Made by a program: the position numbers and the translations under genes. Positions 23,467 through 61,369 of a stretch of 64,000 nt of DNA are shown here, in pieces. The notes beneath the pieces were generated by a model. The model was not told the DNA's origin, ran no database searches, and saw only the letters and a list, made by a program, of their open reading frames with translations. The stretch comes from Shigella phage Sf20. The DNA lies in sequence record MF327006; one strand, given 5' to 3'. Every line of letters begins with the position of its first letter. The first letter of the stretch is position 1.

Positions 23467-26406
23467 ATGGCAGATTTAAGCAGAATCCAATTTAAACGTA
23501 CTAGCACTAAAGGCCGTCGACCTGATGCTGGTACGATGAATCCGGGGGAATTGGCAATCAACCTTGCGGATCAATATCTTCTTACTAAAAATGATTCCGG
23601 TGCTATTATCAATTTAAGTTGTCCTCCGGTTTATGACCGCGATGTTACAATGGCAGGTAAGGTTAAAGGTAATAATTATATCTTAAGTAAAACCGCCAAC
23701 TATCTGGAAGATCAGACAGCGAGAGACCTTAACTACTTTGGTGCTTTCCGTACCAATGGTCTTGACGGTTTTCTCGAACTCACGCTAAACGTTCCTCATT
23801 CTTCTGGTGTTCAGCATGGTCGAGGATTTACTTTCCAGTATGGACACACAGGAAACCGTGTAGAAACTTATGGTTATAATAAAGAAGGACAAAAAGCATT
23901 TAGCTATAAAATGTATCATGAAGGTGATAAACCTACCCCATCGGAATTGAACGTTTATAGCAAACAAGAAGTTGACCGTATGTTTGTTAAAACCGTTAAA
24001 CTTGCTACAGTTCCTGTTGATATCGTTGACGGTTATTTTAAATTAGCAACTGCAATGATTCCGCAAAACGGTCGTAGTGTATTTTTCCGTATTCATGGTG
24101 GTAACGGATATAACGTTACCGCATACGATCAAGTTGATATTGTAGAAATTGTTATTCGCAGTGGAAATAATCGTCCTAAAGGTGTTAACGTTATTGCATA
24201 CCGACGAAATACAAACAAATCATTTGATGTTTTGGCTGTTAATACTTCTGGTGATAACTATGATATCTACGTGAAATATCAGCGTTACACTGATAACGTT
24301 ATTGTTGAATTTGGTAAAAGTGTTGATGTTGATCTGGTAGTCCATGACGTTCCCGACTTTGTTGTTGATCGTCCTGCTGGCGATAATGTTATTGGCGGTC
24401 GCGCGGTAACTCTTTTCAACACAGAAAATAAACGTGGTGTGTTGAGTTTTGACGATAACACACAAAATAGTTATGATATTGTTCACTTGAGTAATGATAA
24501 AGGTACTGGTCGGAAATATATTCGTAAATTCCGCAGTAACTATAATGAAATGATCTGGCATGAGACGGTTCAAGGTTCTACCTATCGACTCGCCACGGGT
24601 AGTACCGATGCTCAGGAGATTCTAACCGTTGAATCTGTTAGCTCAATTGCTGGAACTCATAAAGGTAATATTATTTCTGGACGTATGCTGTTAAATGGCG
24701 GTAGTAATGTTATTACCTTGCGGCGTCCTGCTGGTCAATCCAACCATATTGCGTTTCAAGATAATCGTACTGGAGATATTACCCGTCAAGGATGGATCGG
24801 TTATGCCAATGCTGATACTAACATTTTTGAATGGTATAGTGATGTAGGTGGCAGTTCTATTCGTCAACATATTGACGGACAGATCGAACTTGCAACCGGT
24901 AACACAAAACGCGTTTATACTAACGCTCAATTCATCTCAATGAATAGCGACGCCTACCGCATGCTCTACGGTAATTATGGTGCATTCTGGCGTAATGACG
25001 GCGTTAAAGTTTATCTTCTTTCTACTGCCGAAAATGATAAATTGGGCGGGTGGAATGCCTATCGTCCATTCATTTATGATTTAACTTCCGGTAACGTTCA
25101 ATTAGGCGGTGATGGTAACGAAGAAGCATTAACGTTAGAACGTGCTTCTCGTGCCGCTCGATTTAGTAATGACGTTTACATTAAGAAAGGGCTTTTGACT
25201 TTCGACGCTGGTCGTGCTGGATCTCGCGATTATATTCGATTTAATCATTGGGGTGATAGCAATAATGCTCGTGATAACGTTTTGTACATAGAAGATAGTC
25301 AAGGCCGACATTTTAGTACAGAACGTGCGATGGGTACTGGTGCTCTTAAAGCATACTTCTTAGGCGATCTTGAAGTCGGTGGTAAGTTTACTTGGGGTAA
25401 AAATACAGCTACATCTAGCTTTAATATCCGTGCATGGGGTGCTGATGCTCGTAAACAGGTATTAGAATGTGCTGATGAAAGCGGTTGGCATTGGTATACC
25501 CAACGACCGGGCGGTCCTGGTACTGATGCAATTGAATTTTCTATTAACGGTACGGTTAAGCCTAAAGCAATTCATACTGGCGGCAATATCACTATCAACG
25601 GTGCTGATATTGAGTTTAAACGCGCTGGCAATAAGCATTTATGGTTTAGAGATCCAAACGGATTAGAATTGGGTTTGATTTATTGTGATGATGCTGGTGT
25701 TATTCGTGTCCGTGGTGAGAAGTCGACCGAAGTGTGGAAATTCTCGGCAAAACAGATTCATTTAGAAACGGGTACTGCTGGTAACGGTGTTGGTTTAATC
25801 CGTGGTGCAGTTGGTGGTGGTGCGTGGACTCAATGGAGAGACCGTGGTACTGGCTTACAGGTTGACTGCCAACAATCAGAAAACTCAGCACACAACATAT
25901 GGCGAGCGACTCATCAAGGTAAGTACCATCTTGCAGCAATGGGTGTTCATGCATCTGGTGGTAGTGTTGCTAATACCGTTGTTCGCTTACATGTTCATGA
26001 CTCAAACTATGATTTCACTGCTGTTGGTGACTTCACCGCAGGTCGTAACGGTTCGTTTAACGATGTGTACATTCGTTCTGATGCTCGCCTTAAAATCAAC
26101 AAGGAAGAGTATAAAGAGAATGCCACCGATAAAGTTAATCGCTTAACTGTATACACCTATGACAAGGTTAAATCTTTAACCGACCGTACTGTCATTGCTC
26201 ATGAAGTTGGCATTATCGCACAGGATCTTGAGAAAGAATTGCCGGAAGCAGTAACAACCTCGAAGATCGGAGACGGTGATACACCAGAAGAGATCTTAAC
26301 AATTTCTAACTCTGCTGTCAACGCTCTTTTAATTAAGGCGTTTCAGGAAATGAGCGAAGAATTGAAAGCCGTTAAAGCTGAACTAGCGGAACTTAAAAAG
26401 AATTAA
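23467..26406 (+). CDS. 37: long tail fiber distal subunit with C-terminal intramolecular chaperone (S74-like) domain
   Basis: N-terminus MADLSRIQFKRTS...GELAINLAD matches gp37; C-terminal SDARLK motif (Ser codon 26077-26079) plus coiled-coil tail. Confidence 0.8.
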   Translation: MADLSRIQFKRTSTKGRRPDAGTMNPGELAINLADQYLLTKNDSGAIINLSCPPVYDRDVTMAGKVKGNNYILSKTANYLEDQTARDLNYFGAFRTNGLDGFLELTLNVPHSSGVQHGRGFTFQYGHTGNRVETYGYNKEGQKAFSYKMYHEGDKPTPSELNVYSKQEVDRMFVKTVKLATVPVDIVDGYFKLATAMIPQNGRSVFFRIHGGNGYNVTAYDQVDIVEIVIRSGNNRPKGVNVIAYRRNTNKSFDVLAVNTSGDNYDIYVKYQRYTDNVIVEFGKSVDVDLVVHDVPDFVVDRPAGDNVIGGRAVTLFNTENKRGVLSFDDNTQNSYDIVHLSNDKGTGRKYIRKFRSNYNEMIWHETVQGSTYRLATGSTDAQEILTVESVSSIAGTHKGNIISGRMLLNGGSNVITLRRPAGQSNHIAFQDNRTGDITRQGWIGYANADTNIFEWYSDVGGSSIRQHIDGQIELATGNTKRVYTNAQFISMNSDAYRMLYGNYGAFWRNDGVKVYLLSTAENDKLGGWNAYRPFIYDLTSGNVQLGGDGNEEALTLERASRAARFSNDVYIKKGLLTFDAGRAGSRDYIRFNHWGDSNNARDNVLYIEDSQGRHFSTERAMGTGALKAYFLGDLEVGGKFTWGKNTATSSFNIRAWGADARKQVLECADESGWHWYTQRPGGPGTDAIEFSINGTVKPKAIHTGGNITINGADIEFKRAGNKHLWFRDPNGLELGLIYCDDAGVIRVRGEKSTEVWKFSAKQIHLETGTAGNGVGLIRGAVGGGAWTQWRDRGTGLQVDCQQSENSAHNIWRATHQGKYHLAAMGVHASGGSVANTVVRLHVHDSNYDFTAVGDFTAGRNGSFNDVYIRSDARLKINKEEYKENATDKVNRLTVYTYDKVKSLTDRTVIAHEVGIIAQDLEKELPEAVTTSKIGDGDTPEEILTISNSAVNALLIKAFQEMSEELKAVKAELAELKKN

Positions 26407-26448
26407 GGAAAACTCCCAGGGAAGGGAAACTACTAAGGAGAAACGGCT

Positions 26449-26688
26449 ATGGTCTATAATATCGTCATTGGTGCTTTGTCTAGTTTCGGAATGAAACTAT
26501 TGTCAAAGTTAATTAGTGAAAAGATGCTCACTAAAATTTTCTTCTATTGCGCTCGTCGTCTTGCGGCCTATACCAATACGCCAATTGATGATCGTTTTGT
26601 GGAAGAACTTTATAAGGAGTTTAATAAAGATCAGTCAGAAGATAGTAACGAGCAAGATAAACCTAGTGATAGTCAACTACCTAAATAA
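26449..26688 (+). CDS. hypothetical small protein in the position of gene 38
   Basis: ORF track 79 aa; SD AAGGAG; hydrophobic N-terminus, acidic C-terminus. Confidence 0.45.
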   Translation: MVYNIVIGALSSFGMKLLSKLISEKMLTKIFFYCARRLAAYTNTPIDDRFVEELYKEFNKDQSEDSNEQDKPSDSQLPK

Positions 26689-26721
26689 GAGTACACTGTC
26701 ATAGTTATCTTAGGGCATTAT

Positions 26722-27378
26722 ATGCAAGTTTCTGAAAAAGGGAAAGACTTTGCTATCTCAAATGTCCTGCGCGCTATTTTCACAACTAAAAGCACGGAGT
26801 TGCTCGTACTTCGTGTTTTTGCTGCCGTCGTGTTGTCCATATTGGCATTTGTCGTTTATAGTAAAAACGAGTTATTTGCGCTTTATAAAGAGACTCGTTA
26901 TGAGACTTATGCTCACATTCTCCAGGTAGAGAAAGACCGCAATTTTGATAATGCAGCACAGGAGCAGTTACAGATAGTTCATGTGTCGGCTGATGCCGAT
27001 TTTTCTGCTGTTTTTAGTTTTCGTCCGAAAAACCTAAACTATTTTGTTGATTTGGTGGCATATGAAGGAAAGCTACCGCATACAATCGATGAAAAGAATT
27101 TAGGCGGATTCCCTATCAATAAAACGAGTGAAGAATATCGTAGACATCTTTTAGGTAAATCATATTTTACCGATAAAGATTTCCAGTATATTCCATCAAG
27201 AGAAAAGAAATTAGAGAATATCGATATAGGTTTCATGTATTCTTGTCCTATATTCAATCTCGATAATGTCTATTCTGGTAGTATCGCCATTTCATGGAAG
27301 AATAAACCGGATATTGACATTGAGAATTTAGATACTCTTTGCAATCAATCTGCCAGAATCCTCGGAAGGATTAGATAA
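26722..27378 (+). CDS. t: holin
   Basis: 218 aa; LQIVHVSADADFSAVFSFRPKNLNYFVDLVAYEGKLP...MYSCPIFNLDNVYSGSI matches T4 holin T. Confidence 0.9.
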   Translation: MQVSEKGKDFAISNVLRAIFTTKSTELLVLRVFAAVVLSILAFVVYSKNELFALYKETRYETYAHILQVEKDRNFDNAAQEQLQIVHVSADADFSAVFSFRPKNLNYFVDLVAYEGKLPHTIDEKNLGGFPINKTSEEYRRHLLGKSYFTDKDFQYIPSREKKLENIDIGFMYSCPIFNLDNVYSGSIAISWKNKPDIDIENLDTLCNQSARILGRIR

Positions 27379-27384
27379 CTTAAA

Positions 27385-27416
27385 GGGGAAGCCTTTCGGC
27401 CTCCCCTTCTTTTTAT
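27385..27416 (+). terminator. intrinsic terminator after the late tail-fiber/holin unit
   Basis: Hairpin GGGGAAGCC-UUUC-GGCCUCCCC (one mismatch) followed by UUCUUUUUAUU. Confidence 0.6.
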
Positions 27417-27661
27417 TGGCGCATAGAAGCCCCTGAATCACATTTTGACGCTGTATGATGAAAACATGTAGCGTACCAGTCATCGGCTTGTTTGTCTTCG
27501 TCAGAAAACGCGTAATTGCGTTGTATGCCGTTTTCTACTTTGACCAGTGCAATAGCTGTTTCTGGAAGATCAATCAATCGGACAAAATCACCGTCTTCCC
27601 ACTCCACACGGGCAATATCATAGCCCATCTCAAAGTATACAATCGCTTGTTCTAATTTCAT
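27413..27661 (-). CDS. DUF2829-like small protein (Tad2-family candidate)
   Basis: 82 aa; N-terminal AIVYFEMGYDIARVEW and C-terminal DEDKQADDWYA resemble the DUF2829 pattern; from memory. Confidence 0.4.
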   Translation of the reverse strand: MKLEQAIVYFEMGYDIARVEWEDGDFVRLIDLPETAIALVKVENGIQRNYAFSDEDKQADDWYATCFHHTASKCDSGASMRQ

Positions 27662-27987
27662 TCTGGAAACTTCCCGTAAACATTCTCTGCCAGCTTACGT
27701 GCATCTTTTACAATATCTTTCATATAATGACTATAATTTTTAGCTAGATCAATGATGCAATCAACAAAGAAGTAATAGCGTCGCAGTGCTACCAGCTCAA
27801 CATCTTCAAGATGACCATTTTCTCCAATCGCTGAAATATGTTTAAATTCCTTTCGGATCGCGTCCATCGCTACATTAACTTCTTTTATAATATCTTTCGT
27901 ATTATATGCACCTCGACTAATCAAAATTTTGGTTAGGTCTTCTGCTTTTTCGTGAAAGTTGTCAATTTCAAACTCGATCATAATCAC
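27658..27987 (-). CDS. hypothetical protein, paralog of 28096-28428
   Basis: ORF track 109 aa; C-terminal ...ENVYGKF shared with the paralog. Confidence 0.5.
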   Translation of the reverse strand: MIMIEFEIDNFHEKAEDLTKILISRGAYNTKDIIKEVNVAMDAIRKEFKHISAIGENGHLEDVELVALRRYYFFVDCIIDLAKNYSHYMKDIVKDARKLAENVYGKFPE

Positions 27988-28095
27988 CTCTCATAATTTC
28001 ACGCTGTTGTTTCAACATTTTTTCGTGGTTTGCTAATTCTATACCTTGTAATAGCATAACCAGTGCAATTTTCAATGATTCATCATCTTTCATAA

Positions 28096-28428
28096 TCAAA
28101 ATTTACCGAAAATATTCTCTGTCATAATTCTTGCTTCGTCGATTATTTTCGTCATGTTCATGGTGTAGTTATGATCATTTAGTGCTTTAATAACAACGAG
28201 CAAGGAATCTAAAAACACTCGATACCGGGTATATTCTACGCTATTTGTGAATACCGATGTTTTCTCTACTTTATCGATCAGATAGCCTAAAGCCGATAGC
28301 GCCTCGTTTACTTCCCTTGTTACTTTATCGGCGCTAAACAACACCGGATAAAGACGCGGTGTGATTAACCGCGCTGCCTCTTTCAATTCGGTCGCTTTCC
28401 ATGATTCATATTTGTCATAGTTAAACAT
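28096..28428 (-). CDS. hypothetical protein, paralog of 27658-27987
   Basis: ORF track 110 aa; C-terminal ...ENIFGKF. Confidence 0.5.
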   Translation of the reverse strand: MFNYDKYESWKATELKEAARLITPRLYPVLFSADKVTREVNEALSALGYLIDKVEKTSVFTNSVEYTRYRVFLDSLLVVIKALNDHNYTMNMTKIIDEARIMTENIFGKF

Positions 28429-28440
28429 TGTATAATCTCC

Positions 28441-28773
28441 TTACAGATGAAAACCTGTTACGATCACCGCATCGATCATACCGTTAGGAATAAACGGTTC
28501 GCCATCTTTTATTTCAACTTTGAATTGATGCCATTTCGCTAATACTTCTTCCGGTACACCCAGCGATTCAGCGTCTGCTTTAGTTTCATCCATAATCCAA
28601 CTAGGCTGCATGAGAGCATAGTTTACATAGTCCATTTCTGGGGTCATGTCATCAATGTTAATATATTTGCAGTTGACGCGTTTCAGAATTTCAAATTCTT
28701 TATTGTCAACCTGTACCATGTATAATTCAGTAGTTTCTGGAATCAGTTCCCACACAATCAGTACATTTTTCAT
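28441..28773 (-). CDS. hypothetical protein
   Basis: ORF track 110 aa. Confidence 0.45.
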   Translation of the reverse strand: MKNVLIVWELIPETTELYMVQVDNKEFEILKRVNCKYINIDDMTPEMDYVNYALMQPSWIMDETKADAESLGVPEEVLAKWHQFKVEIKDGEPFIPNGMIDAVIVTGFHL

Positions 28774-28781
28774 AGTTCACC

Positions 28782-29150
28782 TCACTTAACAAAGATTTTC
28801 TTTAATGCTTTCAGGATCGTTGCTTCCGGCGCTTCTTCCGGTGGAGGAAGCAATTCTACCACTTCCTCTTCCAACTCGATATAGTCTACCAGATATTCTA
28901 CATAGAATGCAAGTGCTTCCATGAAATTAGATGCTACATCCGATTCACCACACGCGCCTACATGCATTGTATAAACATCACTGCGATCAAGTTTGTGGAT
29001 GCTTCCCAGATAGTTTCGGTTATACCAGACTTCCCACACTTTCAACTTTCCGGTTTTTGTTGATGTTTTATAATCGGTTTCGTAATGATGTAATTGACGT
29101 TGCAGATCATTGATAATAACACATTTTTCGTAATTGTTTTGAATTTCCAT
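28782..29150 (-). CDS. hypothetical protein
   Basis: ORF track 122 aa. Confidence 0.45.
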   Translation of the reverse strand: MEIQNNYEKCVIINDLQRQLHHYETDYKTSTKTGKLKVWEVWYNRNYLGSIHKLDRSDVYTMHVGACGESDVASNFMEALAFYVEYLVDYIELEEEVVELLPPPEEAPEATILKALKKIFVK

Positions 29151-29160
29151 GATGCAATCC

Positions 29161-29352
29161 TCACTTATCGTTCAGAAGTTCTAAAACTTTCTGTCGTACT
29201 TTGTCAATATTAGTTGATTCAAAAACTGTACGGTATCCCCAGCTTTGACCGTATGAGCGGTTGCAATCTCCATATCCCCATTGTTCAACCTGATAGTATT
29301 CAAGGAATGGGTGCTGCCGAACTATGATACCATCGCGATTAAAAATTACCAT
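29161..29352 (-). CDS. hypothetical protein
   Basis: ORF track 63 aa. Confidence 0.4.
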   Translation of the reverse strand: MVIFNRDGIIVRQHPFLEYYQVEQWGYGDCNRSYGQSWGYRTVFESTNIDKVRQKVLELLNDK

Positions 29353-29375
29353 AATATAATCCTCACGTCAACAAC

Positions 29376-29663
29376 TTATTTTCGGTTGTGGTCACGATAT
29401 GTTTTAAAATATCCCTCGTACCACGGTAAAATATCTGGATTTTTACCACTATACAGACCTTTAACCATCATGTCAATAAGGCCATCTGGTGTTTGATAGT
29501 TTCCCGCTTTTATAAGCTCTCTGATTAAAATCTCTCTGTATATGTCTTTCGGATCTTCGTAATCAACTTGTATTGTGGTTGTGGTCTCATTCAATTTGGT
29601 TTCTGGAGTATCTCGGATCGCATCCCACCAATCTTTTGTGATCTTCATGTTATTGAATTGCAT
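29376..29663 (-). CDS. hypothetical protein
   Basis: ORF track 95 aa. Confidence 0.45.
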   Translation of the reverse strand: MQFNNMKITKDWWDAIRDTPETKLNETTTTIQVDYEDPKDIYREILIRELIKAGNYQTPDGLIDMMVKGLYSGKNPDILPWYEGYFKTYRDHNRK

Positions 29664-29674
29664 AATTTAACCTC

Positions 29675-30433
29675 TTACTTGCAAACGTATTGATCTACAT
29701 CAATTGCGCCACCGAATGTAGGATGACGTTTTTCGAATCGAATAGTTCCGTCGTTTGGTTCGAAAACGGAGTATTCATATAGATCTTTCTTGCCAACATT
29801 CTTATAAAACCCGCCTTTAGTCATAACGGTTTCTTGTACGTTTGCTTTGTGTACGTTGTATTCATCAATGTATACAAAATCAACCATCTTCCCATTTTTA
29901 ATGGTTACTTTAAGATCTCCTGGTTGGTTTCCATATTTTGCATACAGTGGGGCTTCTTTAATTTTGGTGGAAATTCCATCTTTCATACTCCACTCATAAC
30001 GAACGGTGCATTGATAGGTAAAAGTTTCGACCTTCGGTTCTTCTACCACTTTTGCTTCCTGTTTCGGTTGTTCTTCTTCAACCTTCGCAGAAGTCTCTGA
30101 ATAGCTTTCTGACGCGGTTTCTTCTTTAGGTAATACATTCATCAAGTTTTGGATTTGAGCGTTATATACAGCCTCCAGTGGCTGAATCTGCCCGATATTG
30201 ATCATTGTATCACGAACAGTTTTATTCCAGTTGCGTTGCTCTTGTTTAAGAGACGGATCAATCTTAACAGCCTTAACATACACCTCATGAAGTTTAGAGT
30301 CCAGTGCGGAGATAGACTCATTAGCACAAATAAACTTCTCTGATTTGGTAGTAGCTTTAGCGCAATCAAAGGACGCAGCGTTAGCACCGAAAGCAGTAGC
30401 AGAAAGAACGATAGCAGCGATAATGTTTTTCAT
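29675..30433 (-). CDS. secreted protein with DUF1311/LprI-like (lysozyme-inhibitor-like) N-terminal domain
   Basis: Signal peptide MKNIIAAIVLSATAFGANA; CAKATTKSEKFICANESISALDSKLHEVY...KQEQRNWNKTVRD; C-terminal Cys-flanked domain; own promoter. Confidence 0.55.
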   Translation of the reverse strand: MKNIIAAIVLSATAFGANAASFDCAKATTKSEKFICANESISALDSKLHEVYVKAVKIDPSLKQEQRNWNKTVRDTMINIGQIQPLEAVYNAQIQNLMNVLPKEETASESYSETSAKVEEEQPKQEAKVVEEPKVETFTYQCTVRYEWSMKDGISTKIKEAPLYAKYGNQPGDLKVTIKNGKMVDFVYIDEYNVHKANVQETVMTKGGFYKNVGKKDLYEYSVFEPNDGTIRFEKRHPTFGGAIDVDQYVCK

Positions 30434-60532: not shown

Positions 60533-60776
60533 TAATCCACTCCGCAATCACACATTCCATAATATTAAATGCTAACACATCTTCATCAATGTTGTAAACA
60601 CTTGCCGCCTTCACTTTAACTAGTGTGTCTCTGCGATCTGGCAGCATGATCACATAATCCAGTGTCGCAGGATCATATGTCATAAAGGGATCAACATAAA
60701 TCCCTTTATTCAATGCCAGATATTCGCGAAGACCTTCTATAACCCTGTGTCTAAGGTAGGTCATCGATAGAATCAT
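60513..60776 (-). CDS. hypothetical protein
   Basis: ORF track 87 aa. Confidence 0.4.
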   Translation of the reverse strand: MILSMTYLRHRVIEGLREYLALNKGIYVDPFMTYDPATLDYVIMLPDRRDTLVKVKAASVYNIDEDVLAFNIMECVIAEWINGKVKF

Positions 60777-61369
60777 TTTAGTTTATGTTCCTCTAAAAAT
60801 TCTTCAATTTCACCTTGCAGGTCTTCCGCTTGTTGTTCCAGAATATCGCGAAATTCACCTACAGTCAAGCGGTAATCACACTTCACCAGTCGATGTGGGA
60901 GAATATACCCTTTATACATCGTCTCTGACGCTTCCAGGAATACCCCACTATGCATGACAGAGATCCAACCTGTTAGCGTCAATGGAGTATTCGGAAAATA
61001 ATATTTGCTGGATTGTTTCCACTGGACGAAAGCACCATATACAATCGGATTATATTCACCAACCACACTCTTAATAATGGATTCTACTTTGTCTTTTACA
61101 AAGTCGCCAATGTCCATAGTTACCATCAAATCCTGTGGATGAATCACTTTAAGGTAACGACGATAACCGTCATCATACCACATCTTAACCACTGGCTGAC
61201 CCCACATTTTAGCAATACGCGCTTTCAGATAGCCATAGATCGGATTCTTGCAATGTGATTGTTTTAGTGTGTATGTGTGCACCAATTTAATAAAATGTTC
61301 CATTACCAACAAATCAGAATCAGCCGCGACCATAGTCGTATTCATAATATGTTCCTCGTTCAATCTCAT
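60773..61369 (-). CDS. hypothetical protein
   Basis: ORF track 198 aa. Confidence 0.5.
   Translation of the reverse strand: MRLNEEHIMNTTMVAADSDLLVMEHFIKLVHTYTLKQSHCKNPIYGYLKARIAKMWGQPVVKMWYDDGYRRYLKVIHPQDLMVTMDIGDFVKDKVESIIKSVVGEYNPIVYGAFVQWKQSSKYYFPNTPLTLTGWISVMHSGVFLEASETMYKGYILPHRLVKCDYRLTVGEFRDILEQQAEDLQGEIEEFLEEHKLK

What the first reader, a model, noticed from the sequence alone, without database searches (positions are those of the whole stretch)
27413..27661. DUF2829-like small protein, a candidate Tad2-family anti-Thoeris sponge
The 82-aa product has an N-terminal AIVYFEMGYDIARVEW and C-terminal DEDKQADDWYA pattern, resembling the DUF2829 family that includes Tad2. It is the first gene of the early accessory region after the late-operon terminator. 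The assignment is from memory of the family pattern.
Basis: inference. Interest (0 to 1): 0.55.

Follow-up and report, generated by a model that had tools for sequence, protein, structure and literature searches.

The report
Divergent minimal Tad2-like phage protein
This small, highly conserved gene of RB49-like E. coli phages really does belong to the Tad2 family of proteins that soak up bacterial immune signals, but it is a stripped-down, atypical member whose altered binding loop makes the proposed anti-Thoeris role unproven and rather unlikely in its classical form.

Summary
The ORF is real: window 27413-27661, minus strand, 82 aa. It is RB49p255 of an RB49-like Krischvirus, annotated 'hypothetical' everywhere and 97.6-100% identical in about 58 isolates.

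Its assignment to the DUF2829/Tad2-like family holds on four independent tests:
- Pfam PF11195 scores 27.9 bits against a cutoff of 25.
- It shares phrog_1048 with SPO1 and Myroides Tad2.
- hhalign against experimentally tested Tad2s gives 95% probability, E 3e-8.

It is nevertheless an edge-of-family, minimal form:
- The beta2-beta3 insert with helix alpha2 is missing. That insert forms the V-dimer interface and the second ligand pocket.
- The phosphate-clamping W-N-G-K-G loop reads W-E-D-G.
- W73 is Y, and S-Q-T-D is S-D-E-D.
- The 15-aa tail is disordered and unconstrained.

The pocket positions W21, Y50 and D56 are invariant, and the domain is under purifying selection. I therefore read it as a probable ligand sponge of altered, unknown specificity. 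Classical anti-Thoeris activity is untested and less likely than not.

The gene is the last, not the first, gene of the leftward early cluster. Related short forms in Klebsiella phages travel with a tail-spike module, which is an unexplained rival clue.

The parts
27413..27661 (-). CDS of the 82-aa DUF2829/Tad2-like protein (RB49p255 orthologue); the stop codon is at 27413-27415
   Evidence: ORF list. RB49 annotation. Pfam PF11195 27.9 bits. phrog_1048 E 5e-19. Conserved in 58 Krischvirus records.
27461..27661 (-). Tad2-like domain, residues 1-67: alpha1 (3-11), beta1 (14-19), beta2 (26-32), beta3 (36-43), beta4 (46-50), short helix (54-58), beta5 (62-67). It carries W21/E22/D23 (the WNGK-loop equivalent), Y50 (the W73 equivalent), S53-D54-E55-D56 and D61-W62.
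   Evidence: AF2 models with block pLDDT 76-90 over this range. hhalign map to SPO1 Tad2 residues 5-86. Residue table. pN 0.30 vs pS 0.81-0.93.
27416..27460 (-). C-terminal tail, residues 68-82 (HHTASKCDSGASMRQ): predicted disordered and not conserved
   Evidence: pLDDT <50 for residues 69/70-82 in both models. Orthologue tails are unalignable. In the tail pN is about equal to pS, 0.76/0.74 and 0.82/0.82.
27658..27661 (-). ATGA overlap: the stop codon of the upstream gene overlaps the start codon of this gene, suggesting translational coupling
   Evidence: Sequence read on the minus strand...CCAGAATGAAATTA.... The same abutting or overlapping arrangement is present in orthologous loci L003 (380/380) and L004 (6001-6004).
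27382..27409 (.). GC-rich hairpin filling the 34-bp gap between holin t and this gene. It is a bidirectional terminator-like element shared by the convergent transcripts.
   Evidence: RNA folds of -16.8 kcal/mol (+ strand, followed by UCUUUUUAUU) and -23.2 kcal/mol (- strand, z -4.7). Annotated as a terminator in phage TB34. The U-tract on the minus strand is weak, so termination of the leftward transcript is inferred.
27658..27987 (-). Upstream, translationally coupled gene (107-109 aa, phrog_9457, unknown function), paralogous to 28096-28428
   Evidence: The pairing with the DUF2829 gene is conserved in L003 and L004.
29448..29476 (-). Nearest strong sigma-70-like promoter upstream on the same strand (TTGACA-17-TATAGT, 11/12); candidate early promoter for the transcript that ends with this gene
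   Evidence: Consensus scan only. No T4-type late promoter TATAAATA is present on the minus strand anywhere near. Early expression is an inference, not shown.
26722..27378 (+). Holin t, the convergent neighbour (context only, not part of the system)
   Evidence: Pfam Phage_holin_T, 206.7 bits.

Best explanation
The gene encodes a genuine but minimal and divergent member of the Tad2-like (DUF2829) fold family, and it is fixed in RB49-like Krischvirus phages.

Shown here:
- Homology to, and the same fold as, the Tad2 signal sponges.
- Strong purifying selection on the 67-residue domain.
- A disordered, unconstrained tail.
- Position as the last gene of the leftward accessory cluster between gene 52 and holin t, coupled to the upstream gene by an ATGA overlap.
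- It is the only DUF2829 gene in the RB49 genome.

Inferred:
- It is made early, from sigma-70-type promoters.
- It assembles into a homo-oligomer.
- It uses the inter-protomer pocket that is retained in this clade (W21, Y50, D56, equivalent to SPO1 W25, W73, D79) to sequester a small host molecule. That molecule is most probably an immune second messenger, so the protein would blunt a signalling defence system.

Ligand recognition must differ from SPO1, HgmTad2 or MoTad2, for two reasons. The phosphate-clamping W-N-G-K-G loop has become the acidic W-E-D-G, and the facing S-Q-T-D has become S-D-E-D. The beta2-beta3/alpha2 insertion is absent, so there can be no second cyclic-nucleotide pocket and possibly no tetramer. 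The target signal is unknown, and classical type I Thoeris 3'cADPR/gcADPR is not the most likely one.

My estimates: membership of the fold family about 0.9; acts as a small-molecule sponge about 0.45-0.5; inhibits type I Thoeris about 0.15.
For: Family and fold:
- Pfam PF11195 27.9 bits against a gathering threshold of 25, covering residues 1-63.
- phrog_1048 is the best PHROG for this protein (70 bits), for SPO1 Tad2 (101 bits) and for MoTad2 (112 bits).
- hhalign against 13 experimentally tested Tad2s gives 95.1% probability and E 3e-8.
- Two AF2 models (pLDDT 76.5 and 78.0) share the topology alpha1-beta1-4-alpha-beta5.
- The top 8 Foldseek PDB hits are all SPO1 or Myroides Tad2, with TM 0.57-0.62 and probability 1.00.
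- BFVD neighbours are almost all 'Thoeris anti-defense 2-like' proteins.

Pocket retained:
- W21, Y50 and D56, together with R18, D61 and W62, are invariant across nine short-clade sequences from two phage lineages.
- They map onto SPO1 ligand contacts W25, W73 and D79.

Selection:
- In the domain pN is about 0.30 against pS 0.81-0.93; in the tail pN is about equal to pS.

Context:
- Sponge-like traits are present: under 100 aa, phage-borne, in an accessory gene cluster.
- No late promoter is nearby and sigma-70-like promoters lie upstream.
- The Tad2 family is functionally plastic. Members inhibit Thoeris I, II and IV, CBASS and Pycsar, and Tad2_79 with a non-WNG loop (W-S-K-D) is still active.
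Against: - There is no experimental datum for this protein or clade.
- The loop whose N and G bind the diphosphate in HgmTad2 is changed to E plus a deletion, and the conserved K to D.
- The domain pI is 4.08, whereas sponge pockets are reported to be 'almost always highly positively charged'.
- The alpha2 region that forms the V-shaped dimer is absent, so the oligomeric state is unknown.
- The Pfam score is marginal compared with 41-94 bits for active sponges.
- Tad2_80, another short homologue without the insertion, showed no inhibition in the four systems where it could be tested. It is only 18% identical to this protein, so this carries little weight.
- The related Klebsiella short clade is physically tied to a tail-spike gene and coexists with a canonical Tad2 in the same phage. 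This could mean the short form does something other than sponge signals.
- The beta3 residue mapping differs by one position between MAFFT and hhalign, so only the W25-N29 and W73-W85 segments are mapped reliably.
Confidence: 0.5

Rival explanations
1. One reading: a classical Tad2 sponge that binds type I Thoeris 3'cADPR/gcADPR in the canonical pocket and thereby protects the phage from Thoeris.
For: - The Pfam family hit passes its threshold and the fold matches.
- W21, D56, S53, R18 and D61-W62 match SPO1 W25, D79, S76, R22 and D84-W85.
- Most tested Tad2 homologues inhibit type I Thoeris.
- Tad2_79 inhibits types I and IV despite having a W-S-K-D loop.
Against: - N26 is E, G27 is deleted, K28 is D, W73 is Y, T78 is E and Q77 is D.
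- In HgmTad2 the N and G bind the diphosphate, and W21A/N22A abolishes binding.
- Four acidic side chains are added around a site that must accept a diphosphate. All nine active homologues aligned have W at the 73 position and K at the 28 position.
- The alpha2 dimer element is missing.
- The Pfam score is 27.9 bits, against 86-94 bits for validated type I/II sponges.
Confidence: 0.15
2. The Tad2 fold has been re-purposed in the short clade for a role that is not signal sequestration. One possibility is a protein-protein role linked to tail-spike or tail-fibre biogenesis or to lysis, with the protein acting as a small chaperone or accessory factor.
For: - In Klebsiella phages and prophages the related short form starts with a TGATG/TAATG overlap on the end of a tail-spike gene. 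That spike's roughly 600-aa C-terminal module is 85-95% identical across N4-like, Tail_spike_N-type and P2-like backgrounds, and 54% identical in L012.
- In the Tail_spike_N-type prophages (L008-L010) the lysis cassette follows directly.
- Phage VLCpiP4b has both this short form in its tail module and a canonical Tad2 domain (81.3 bits) elsewhere, which suggests the two are not redundant.
- In the window the gene abuts holin t and lies about 1 kb from distal tail-fibre gene 37.
Against: - In Krischvirus and its two divergent relatives the gene is on the opposite strand from the tail-fibre and holin genes. It lies inside the early-type cluster, has no late promoter, and is coupled to an unrelated upstream gene.
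- The two short clades are only 28-34% identical, so the context need not transfer from one to the other.
- Module boundaries next to tail-fibre and lysis genes are common sites for accessory cargo (established knowledge, not tested here). The Klebsiella linkage could simply be co-transfer of a cassette.
- Invariance of the ligand-pocket positions W, Y and D across both clades fits a binding pocket better than a chaperone surface.
Confidence: 0.2
3. A decaying or functionless remnant of a Tad2 gene, or a chance ORF with a spurious marginal Pfam hit.
For: - The Pfam score is only 2.9 bits above threshold.
- phmmer and BLASTP against PDB and SPO1 Tad2 find nothing.
- Some phmmer hits were spurious FN3-like repeat proteins.
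Against: - Homology is independently supported by hhalign and by two structure searches.
- The gene is 97.6-100% conserved in 58 isolates.
- Syntenic orthologues exist at 49-59% identity, with pN far below pS in the domain.
- The model is confidently folded.
Confidence: 0.03

Closest known systems
SPO1 Tad2 (PDB 8SME/8SMF/8SMG), founding member of Pfam PF11195 / DUF2829; type I Thoeris gcADPR sponge
   Same: - Same fold: N-terminal helix, five-stranded antiparallel sheet and a short helix before the last strand. Foldseek TM 0.57-0.62.
- Same PHROG.
- Conserved A, G, R and W in the N-terminal half and S..D....DW in the C-terminal half; W25, D79 and S76 equivalents are retained.
- A small, acidic phage protein.
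   Different: - Only about 22% identity at profile level, and no BLASTP or phmmer hit.
- The roughly 25-residue beta2-beta3 insert with alpha2 is missing. In SPO1 that insert forms the V-dimer interface.
- WNGKN reads WE-DG, W73 is Y, and SQTDV reads SDEDK.
- There is an extra 15-aa disordered tail.
- Oligomeric state and ligand are unknown.
HgmTad2 / AcrIIA7 (PDB 8KBI) and Myroides ModTad2 (PDB 9EIB, 8V3E)
   Different: Their extra specificities depend on the long beta2-beta5 insertion pocket, which is entirely absent here. Both keep the WNGKG loop.
Tad2_80 (IMG/VR Ga0315297_1000001274 = P0010), a short 73-aa Tad2 homologue tested in the 2025 sponge-diversity preprint
   Same: It has no beta2-beta3 insertion, an acidic non-WNG loop (W-P-D-D-G) and a marginal Pfam score (29.9 bits).
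   Different: It is only 18% identical to the window protein and has L rather than Y or W at the W73 position. It showed no inhibition of type I or II Thoeris, E. albertii CBASS or Bacillus Pycsar, and could not be transformed with the other three systems.
Klebsiella short-clade DUF2829 proteins (for example UVX31119.1 of phage VLCpiP4b; P0009, P0011-P0015)
   Same: They are the closest relatives outside T4-like phages: hhalign 95.8% probability, E 7e-9, 33% identity. They share derived characters: W-[D/V]-D, Y at the W73 position, T-D-[D/S]-D-[K/R/M], and no insertion.
   Different: They are 71-72 aa with no tail. They are encoded co-directionally with, and overlapping, a tail-spike gene in late or structural modules, not in an early cluster.
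T4 AsiA (positional analogue only)
   Same: This gene occupies the slot immediately convergent with holin t, where T4 carries asiA. The T4 gene order comes from established knowledge. The RB49 annotation of a neighbouring gene refers to the T4 'AsiA-MotA region'.
   Different: A Pfam scan at E<=10 gives no AsiA family hit, only Tad2-like, and the fold is different. This is not a homologue.

Membership tests
Tad2-like / DUF2829 (Pfam PF11195) | Scores at or above the Pfam gathering threshold | tested here: met
   27.9 bits against a cutoff of 25, E 3.4e-6, residues 1-63 on profile positions 1-71 of 73. The orthologues score 26.1 and 25.5 bits. The match is marginal compared with 86-94 bits for the founding members.
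Tad2-like / DUF2829 (Pfam PF11195) | Profile-level homology to experimentally validated Tad2 proteins | tested here: met
   hhalign A1 vs A2 gives 95.1% probability and E 3e-8 over 63 columns. phrog_1048 is shared with SPO1 and Mo Tad2.
Tad2-like / DUF2829 (Pfam PF11195) | Fold: alpha1 followed by antiparallel beta1-beta5, with a short helix before beta5 | tested here: met
Tad2-like / DUF2829 (Pfam PF11195) | Family-wide conserved residues (SPO1 numbering F7, A10, G17, R22, W25, W73, D79, D84, W85) | tested here: met
   Seven of nine are identical (A6, G13, R18, W21, D56, D61, W62) and two are conservative (L3 for F, Y50 for W).
Functional Tad2 signal sponge (SPO1/HgmTad2 type) | W-N-G-(K)-G loop, in which the N and G bind the ligand diphosphate | tested here: not met
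   The loop reads W21-E22-(gap)-D23-G24, and orthologues have E or D at the N position.
Functional Tad2 signal sponge (SPO1/HgmTad2 type) | Second tryptophan (W73) packing on the ligand | tested here: inconclusive
   Y50 is invariant in all nine short-clade sequences. It is aromatic, but all nine active homologues in the alignment have W.
Functional Tad2 signal sponge (SPO1/HgmTad2 type) | Asp (D79) and Ser (S76) contacting ribose hydroxyls and waters | tested here: met
   D56 and S53 align to D79 and S76 in both hhalign and MAFFT.
Functional Tad2 signal sponge (SPO1/HgmTad2 type) | beta2-beta3 insertion with helix alpha2, which forms the V-shaped dimer and, in long forms, the second cyclic-nucleotide pocket | tested here: not met
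   About 8 residues (30-37) replace about 26 in SPO1. Neither AF2 model has a full helix there.
Functional Tad2 signal sponge (SPO1/HgmTad2 type) | Homotetramer with inter-protomer pockets | not testable with these tools
   Only single-chain prediction is available. This needs AF-Multimer/AF3 or SEC-MALS.
Functional Tad2 signal sponge (SPO1/HgmTad2 type) | Positively charged ligand pocket (a general sponge trait) | tested here: inconclusive
   At sequence level the pocket-lining positions gain E22, D23, D54 and E55 and lose K28, while gaining R48 and K57. The domain pI is 4.08. The trait is described. No oligomer model is available from which to compute pocket electrostatics.
Functional Tad2 signal sponge (SPO1/HgmTad2 type) | Binds 3'cADPR/gcADPR, or another immune signal, and inhibits the cognate defence system in vivo | not testable with these tools
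   No published test was found. The sequence is not in Table S2, nor in the stored part of Table S1, of the 2025 survey.
T4 AsiA anti-sigma factor (positional analogue) | Sequence-family membership | tested here: not met
   A Pfam scan at E<=10 returns only PF11195.

The most novel reading that the evidence does not exclude
The short, insertion-less Tad2 clade with an acidic loop (Krischvirus plus the Klebsiella tail-spike-linked forms) has kept the aromatic inter-protomer pocket but re-tuned it for an immune or regulatory small molecule that is not among the known Thoeris, CBASS or Pycsar signals. The ligand might lack an exposed diphosphate or carry positive charge. The protein could then serve as bait to discover a new signalling defence system in Enterobacteriaceae, as ModTad2 did for His-ADPR.
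Probability: 0.15. Interest if true: 0.75.

Novelty: new member of a known kind. Interest (0 to 1): 0.35.

Why it matters
RB49-like Krischvirus phages are widely isolated broad-host-range E. coli phages, and they are used as models and as therapy candidates. Knowing which anti-defence genes they carry helps predict host range.

This gene is their only Tad2-family gene and is nearly invariant, so it probably matters to the phage. If it is an active sponge with a re-modelled pocket, it would extend the known ligand range of the Tad2 family and could serve as a handle for finding the signal it binds. If it does not sequester signals, it would show that the Tad2 fold has been recruited for another job, and that automatic 'Thoeris anti-defense 2-like' labels over-predict function at the family's margin.

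Tried and rejected
- Single-sequence searches gave nothing. phmmer against PDB and BLASTP against SPO1 Tad2 found no hit, and a four-sequence profile against PDB also found none.
- The exhaustive phmmer search over 1.84 billion representatives found only 8 hits. Three of them are FN3-like repeat proteins matching 'RVEW.DG', which I judged spurious.
- The word-indexed searches did not extend the Krischvirus clade beyond P0004 and P0005.
- P0002 and P0006 are not real variants. P0002 is a fold-back chimera: its C-terminus is the translation of the opposite strand.
- The IMG/VR pattern scan confirmed only two Krischvirus contigs.
- I considered a zinc or metal site in the tail (C66, H68, H69, C74). 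I rejected it because the tail is not conserved in the orthologues and is predicted disordered.
- I considered homology to T4 AsiA on positional grounds and rejected it.
- I looked for a second, canonical Tad2 in RB49 by an HMM scan of the whole genome. None was found.
- I looked for Acb1, Acb2 or Tad1 families among 49 small leftward ORFs of the window. None was found.
- Literature searches for RB49 or Krischvirus together with Thoeris or Tad2 found nothing relevant.
- The consensus terminator scan missed the t / DUF2829 hairpin because of an internal mismatch on the + strand. Direct folding recovered it.

Full report
**1. The observation**

The window is an RB49-like Krischvirus (Straboviridae). 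Region 26400-29400 is 98.7% identical to phage RB49 and to many isolates.

Both motifs are at the stated places. It corresponds to RB49p255 / NP_891826.1, which is annotated 'hypothetical protein' in every record inspected.

It is a real gene:
- tblastn finds it at 97.6-100% identity in 58 Krischvirus genomes.
- Two much more divergent orthologues from metagenomes, P0004 (59% identity) and P0005 (49%), lie at the same position: last gene of the cluster running from topoisomerase gene 52 towards holin t, tail-to-tail with t.
- Between these orthologues, synonymous sites in residues 1-67 are saturated (pS 0.81-0.93) while pN is about 0.30. In the 15-residue tail pN equals pS.

**2. Local anatomy**

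The gene converges on holin t (26722-27378, Pfam Phage_holin_T). The 34-bp gap between them is almost entirely a GC-rich hairpin at 27382-27409. It folds on both strands, at -16.8 kcal/mol on + (followed by a U-run) and -23.2 kcal/mol on -. Phage TB34 annotates it as a terminator.

Physically it is the first gene after the terminator, but transcriptionally it is the last.

Its ATG overlaps the stop codon of the upstream gene (ATGA, 27658-27661). The same tight junction occurs in both divergent loci.

No T4-type late promoter (TATAAATA) occurs on the minus strand anywhere near. Sigma-70-like promoters lie upstream on the same strand at 29476, 30496 and 31041. Early expression is therefore plausible, but it is inferred from consensus matches only.

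All neighbouring genes are of unknown function.

**3. Family membership**

Pfam PF11195, now called 'Tad2-like', scores 27.9 bits against a gathering threshold of 25 (E 3.4e-6, residues 1-63). Three independent lines agree:
- The best PHROG, phrog_1048 (E 5e-19), is also the best PHROG for SPO1 Tad2 and Myroides Tad2.
- I aligned the 13 Tad2 homologues whose sequences and phenotypes are given in Table S2 of bioRxiv 10.1101/2025.08.24.671296. hhalign of the Krischvirus-clade alignment against them gives 95.1% probability and E 3e-8 over 63 columns.
- Two AlphaFold2 models built from different alignments (pLDDT 76.5 and 78.0, pTM 0.63-0.64) share the same topology: helix 3-11, four strands, a short helix 54-58, a last strand 62-67, and a disordered tail from residue 69/70.

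The structure searches all point the same way:
- Foldseek against the PDB returns SPO1 and Myroides Tad2 chains as its eight best hits (probability 1.00, TM 0.57-0.62), then drops to E about 1.
- Foldseek against BFVD returns the protein's own entry, then about twenty 'Thoeris anti-defense 2-like domain-containing' proteins.

Single-sequence methods find nothing, which shows how divergent the protein is.

**4. How it differs from validated sponges**

The published SPO1 Tad2-gcADPR structure names W25, W73, N26 and D79 as principal contacts, with T78, I63, T65, D67, H71 and S76 as secondary or water-mediated contacts (10.1101/2023.05.01.538930). In HgmTad2 the diphosphate is held by the N and G of the WNG loop from both protomers, and W21A/N22A abolishes binding (10.1101/2023.11.15.567273).

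| SPO1 Tad2 residue | Window protein |
|---|---|
| W25 | W21 |
| N26 | E22 |
| G27 | deleted |
| K28 | D23 |
| W73 | Y50 |
| S76 | S53 |
| Q77 | D54 |
| T78 | E55 |
| D79 | D56 |
| D84-W85 | D61-W62 |

The beta3 positions are offset by one residue between MAFFT and hhalign, so I do not rely on them.

All nine active homologues in the alignment have W at position 73 and K at position 28, and eight of the nine have WNGKG.

The roughly 26-residue beta2-beta3 insertion that carries helix alpha2 is reduced to about 8 residues here. That element forms the V-shaped dimer in SPO1 Tad2. In longer forms it also builds the second pocket, which binds cyclic dinucleotides or cUMP.

The domain is strongly acidic (pI 4.08). 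A survey of sponges reports that their pockets are almost always positively charged (10.1101/2025.07.12.664507).

On Pfam score the protein sits at the edge of the family:

| Protein | PF11195 score (bits) | Activity reported |
|---|---|---|
| Window protein | 27.9 | untested |
| SPO1 Tad2 | 85.8 | active |
| MoTad2 | 94.5 | active |
| Tad2_79 | 41.3 | active but divergent |
| Tad2_80 | 29.9 | none detected |

Tad2_80 is a short homologue that gave no inhibition in the four systems in which it could be tested.

**5. Evidence that a binding function is nevertheless retained**

The only close relatives outside T4-like phages are 71-72-aa proteins of Klebsiella phages and prophages. They are related to the Krischvirus clade at 33% identity (hhalign 95.8%, E 7e-9).

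Across the nine sequences of these two short clades the invariant positions include W21, Y50 and D56. These are the equivalents of three of the four principal SPO1 ligand contacts. R18 and D61-W62 are invariant as well. Decay of the pocket would not preserve these positions, so a ligand-binding function with altered chemistry is the most economical reading.

The family is known to be plastic. Members inhibit type I, II and IV Thoeris, CBASS and Pycsar. The authors note that 19 of 84 sponge homologues inhibited none of seven systems and may bind undiscovered signals.

**6. An unexpected rival clue**

The Klebsiella short forms are always encoded immediately after a tail-spike gene, with a TGATG or TAATG stop/start overlap. 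This holds in an N4-like phage, in Tail_spike_N-type prophages (where the lysis cassette follows), in a P2-like prophage and in further contigs.

Those spikes share a roughly 600-aa C-terminal module. It is 85-95% identical, or 54% in one case, and is grafted onto different N-terminal anchors. The small gene therefore travels as a cassette with that module.

The N4-like phage VLCpiP4b also carries a canonical Tad2 domain (81.3 bits) as the C-terminal half of a 164-aa protein in another region. The short form is therefore probably not redundant with a canonical sponge.

RB49, by contrast, has no second DUF2829 gene. HMMs of canonical and short Tad2s find only this gene in the whole genome.

The tail-spike linkage could indicate a non-sponge role, or it could simply reflect cargo placement at a module boundary. 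In Krischvirus the gene is on the opposite strand from the tail-fibre and holin genes and belongs to the early-type cluster. For that reason I rank this rival below the sponge reading.

**7. Verdict**

The family assignment is correct and now rests on four independent tests.

The functional label 'anti-Thoeris sponge' is not established. Two defining features of the characterised sponges were tested and are not met: the WNG(K)G phosphate loop and the alpha2 insertion. I therefore file the protein as a member of the Tad2-like fold family, not as a demonstrated Tad2-type Thoeris inhibitor.

My best explanation, at about 0.5, is a minimal homo-oligomeric small-molecule sponge of altered, unknown specificity. 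Classical type I Thoeris inhibition is about 0.15, a non-sponge role about 0.2, and a functionless remnant about 0.03.

The domain assignment is already implicit in public databases: the collection holds a precomputed PF11195 hit for the 98%-identical cluster representative P0001. No study of the protein was found. The novelty is that of a new, atypical member of a known kind, and the interest is moderate.

Noticed in passing
L005 2453-2659; L009/L010 6001-6216; L012 5001-5216; L013 5001-5216; L014 1195-1410: A 71-72-aa short-form DUF2829 gene in Klebsiella phages and prophages always overlaps (TGATG/TAATG) the end of a tail-spike gene. The spike's roughly 600-aa C-terminal module is 85-95% identical (54% in L012) across N4-like, Tail_spike_N-type and P2-like phage backgrounds. 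Spike C-terminus and small gene therefore move as one cassette.
   Followed up: partly
ON602751.1 (Klebsiella phage VLCpiP4b): L018 2264-2758 and L005 2453-2659: The same phage encodes two DUF2829 proteins. One is a canonical Tad2 domain (PF11195, 81.3 bits) forming the C-terminal half of a 164-aa protein, which has an unassigned 80-aa N-terminal part and lies among small accessory genes. The other is the short form, between two tail-protein genes.
   Followed up: partly
window 27658-27987 (-) and 28096-28428 (-): These two adjacent genes of about 110 aa are paralogues: both fall in phrog_9457, BLASTP E 8e-8, and they share a ...EN[VI][YF]GKF C-terminus. Their function is unknown. The first is ATGA-coupled to the DUF2829 gene here and in the divergent loci L003 and L004.
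   Followed up: partly
window 29675-30433 (-): A 252-aa protein with a signal-peptide-like N-terminus (MKNIIAAIVLSATAFGANA...) and a Pfam LprI 'lysozyme inhibitor' domain (25.1 bits against a cutoff of 22). It is a possible exported phage protein in the early cluster.
   Followed up: no
P0002 (83 aa, metagenome contig) versus window 27455-27655 (+): P0002 matches the gene for residues 1-58. It then continues as the translation of the opposite-strand ORF (…SDKITVFP…HLK.NNRLF). This indicates a fold-back chimeric assembly rather than a natural variant. P0006 (40 aa) is a truncated or frameshifted copy.
   Followed up: partly
P0003, P0007, P0008 (long repeat proteins): Exhaustive phmmer with the 82-aa query pulled out FN3-like tandem-repeat proteins with 6-8 matched stretches around 'YRVQWTDGN'. 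These are compositional or motif artefacts, not homologues.
   Followed up: partly
L016 10826-11290 (RB49 record 60725-61189, outside the window): RB49 annotates a 57B gene, labelled 'RNA ligase'. In T4, 57B is the cyclic-nucleotide-degrading Acb1 (from my own knowledge, not verified here). Krischvirus may therefore carry at least one other anti-signalling gene. No Acb2 or Tad1 family hit was seen among 49 small ORFs of the window.
   Followed up: no
L011 5001-5222 (94-kb viral contig Ga0315297_10000012): The tested but inactive short homologue Tad2_80 (P0010) is a lone plus-strand gene. It is embedded in a minus-strand block of glycosyltransferase, asparagine-synthase and methyltransferase genes, which is an unusual context for a sponge.
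   Followed up: no
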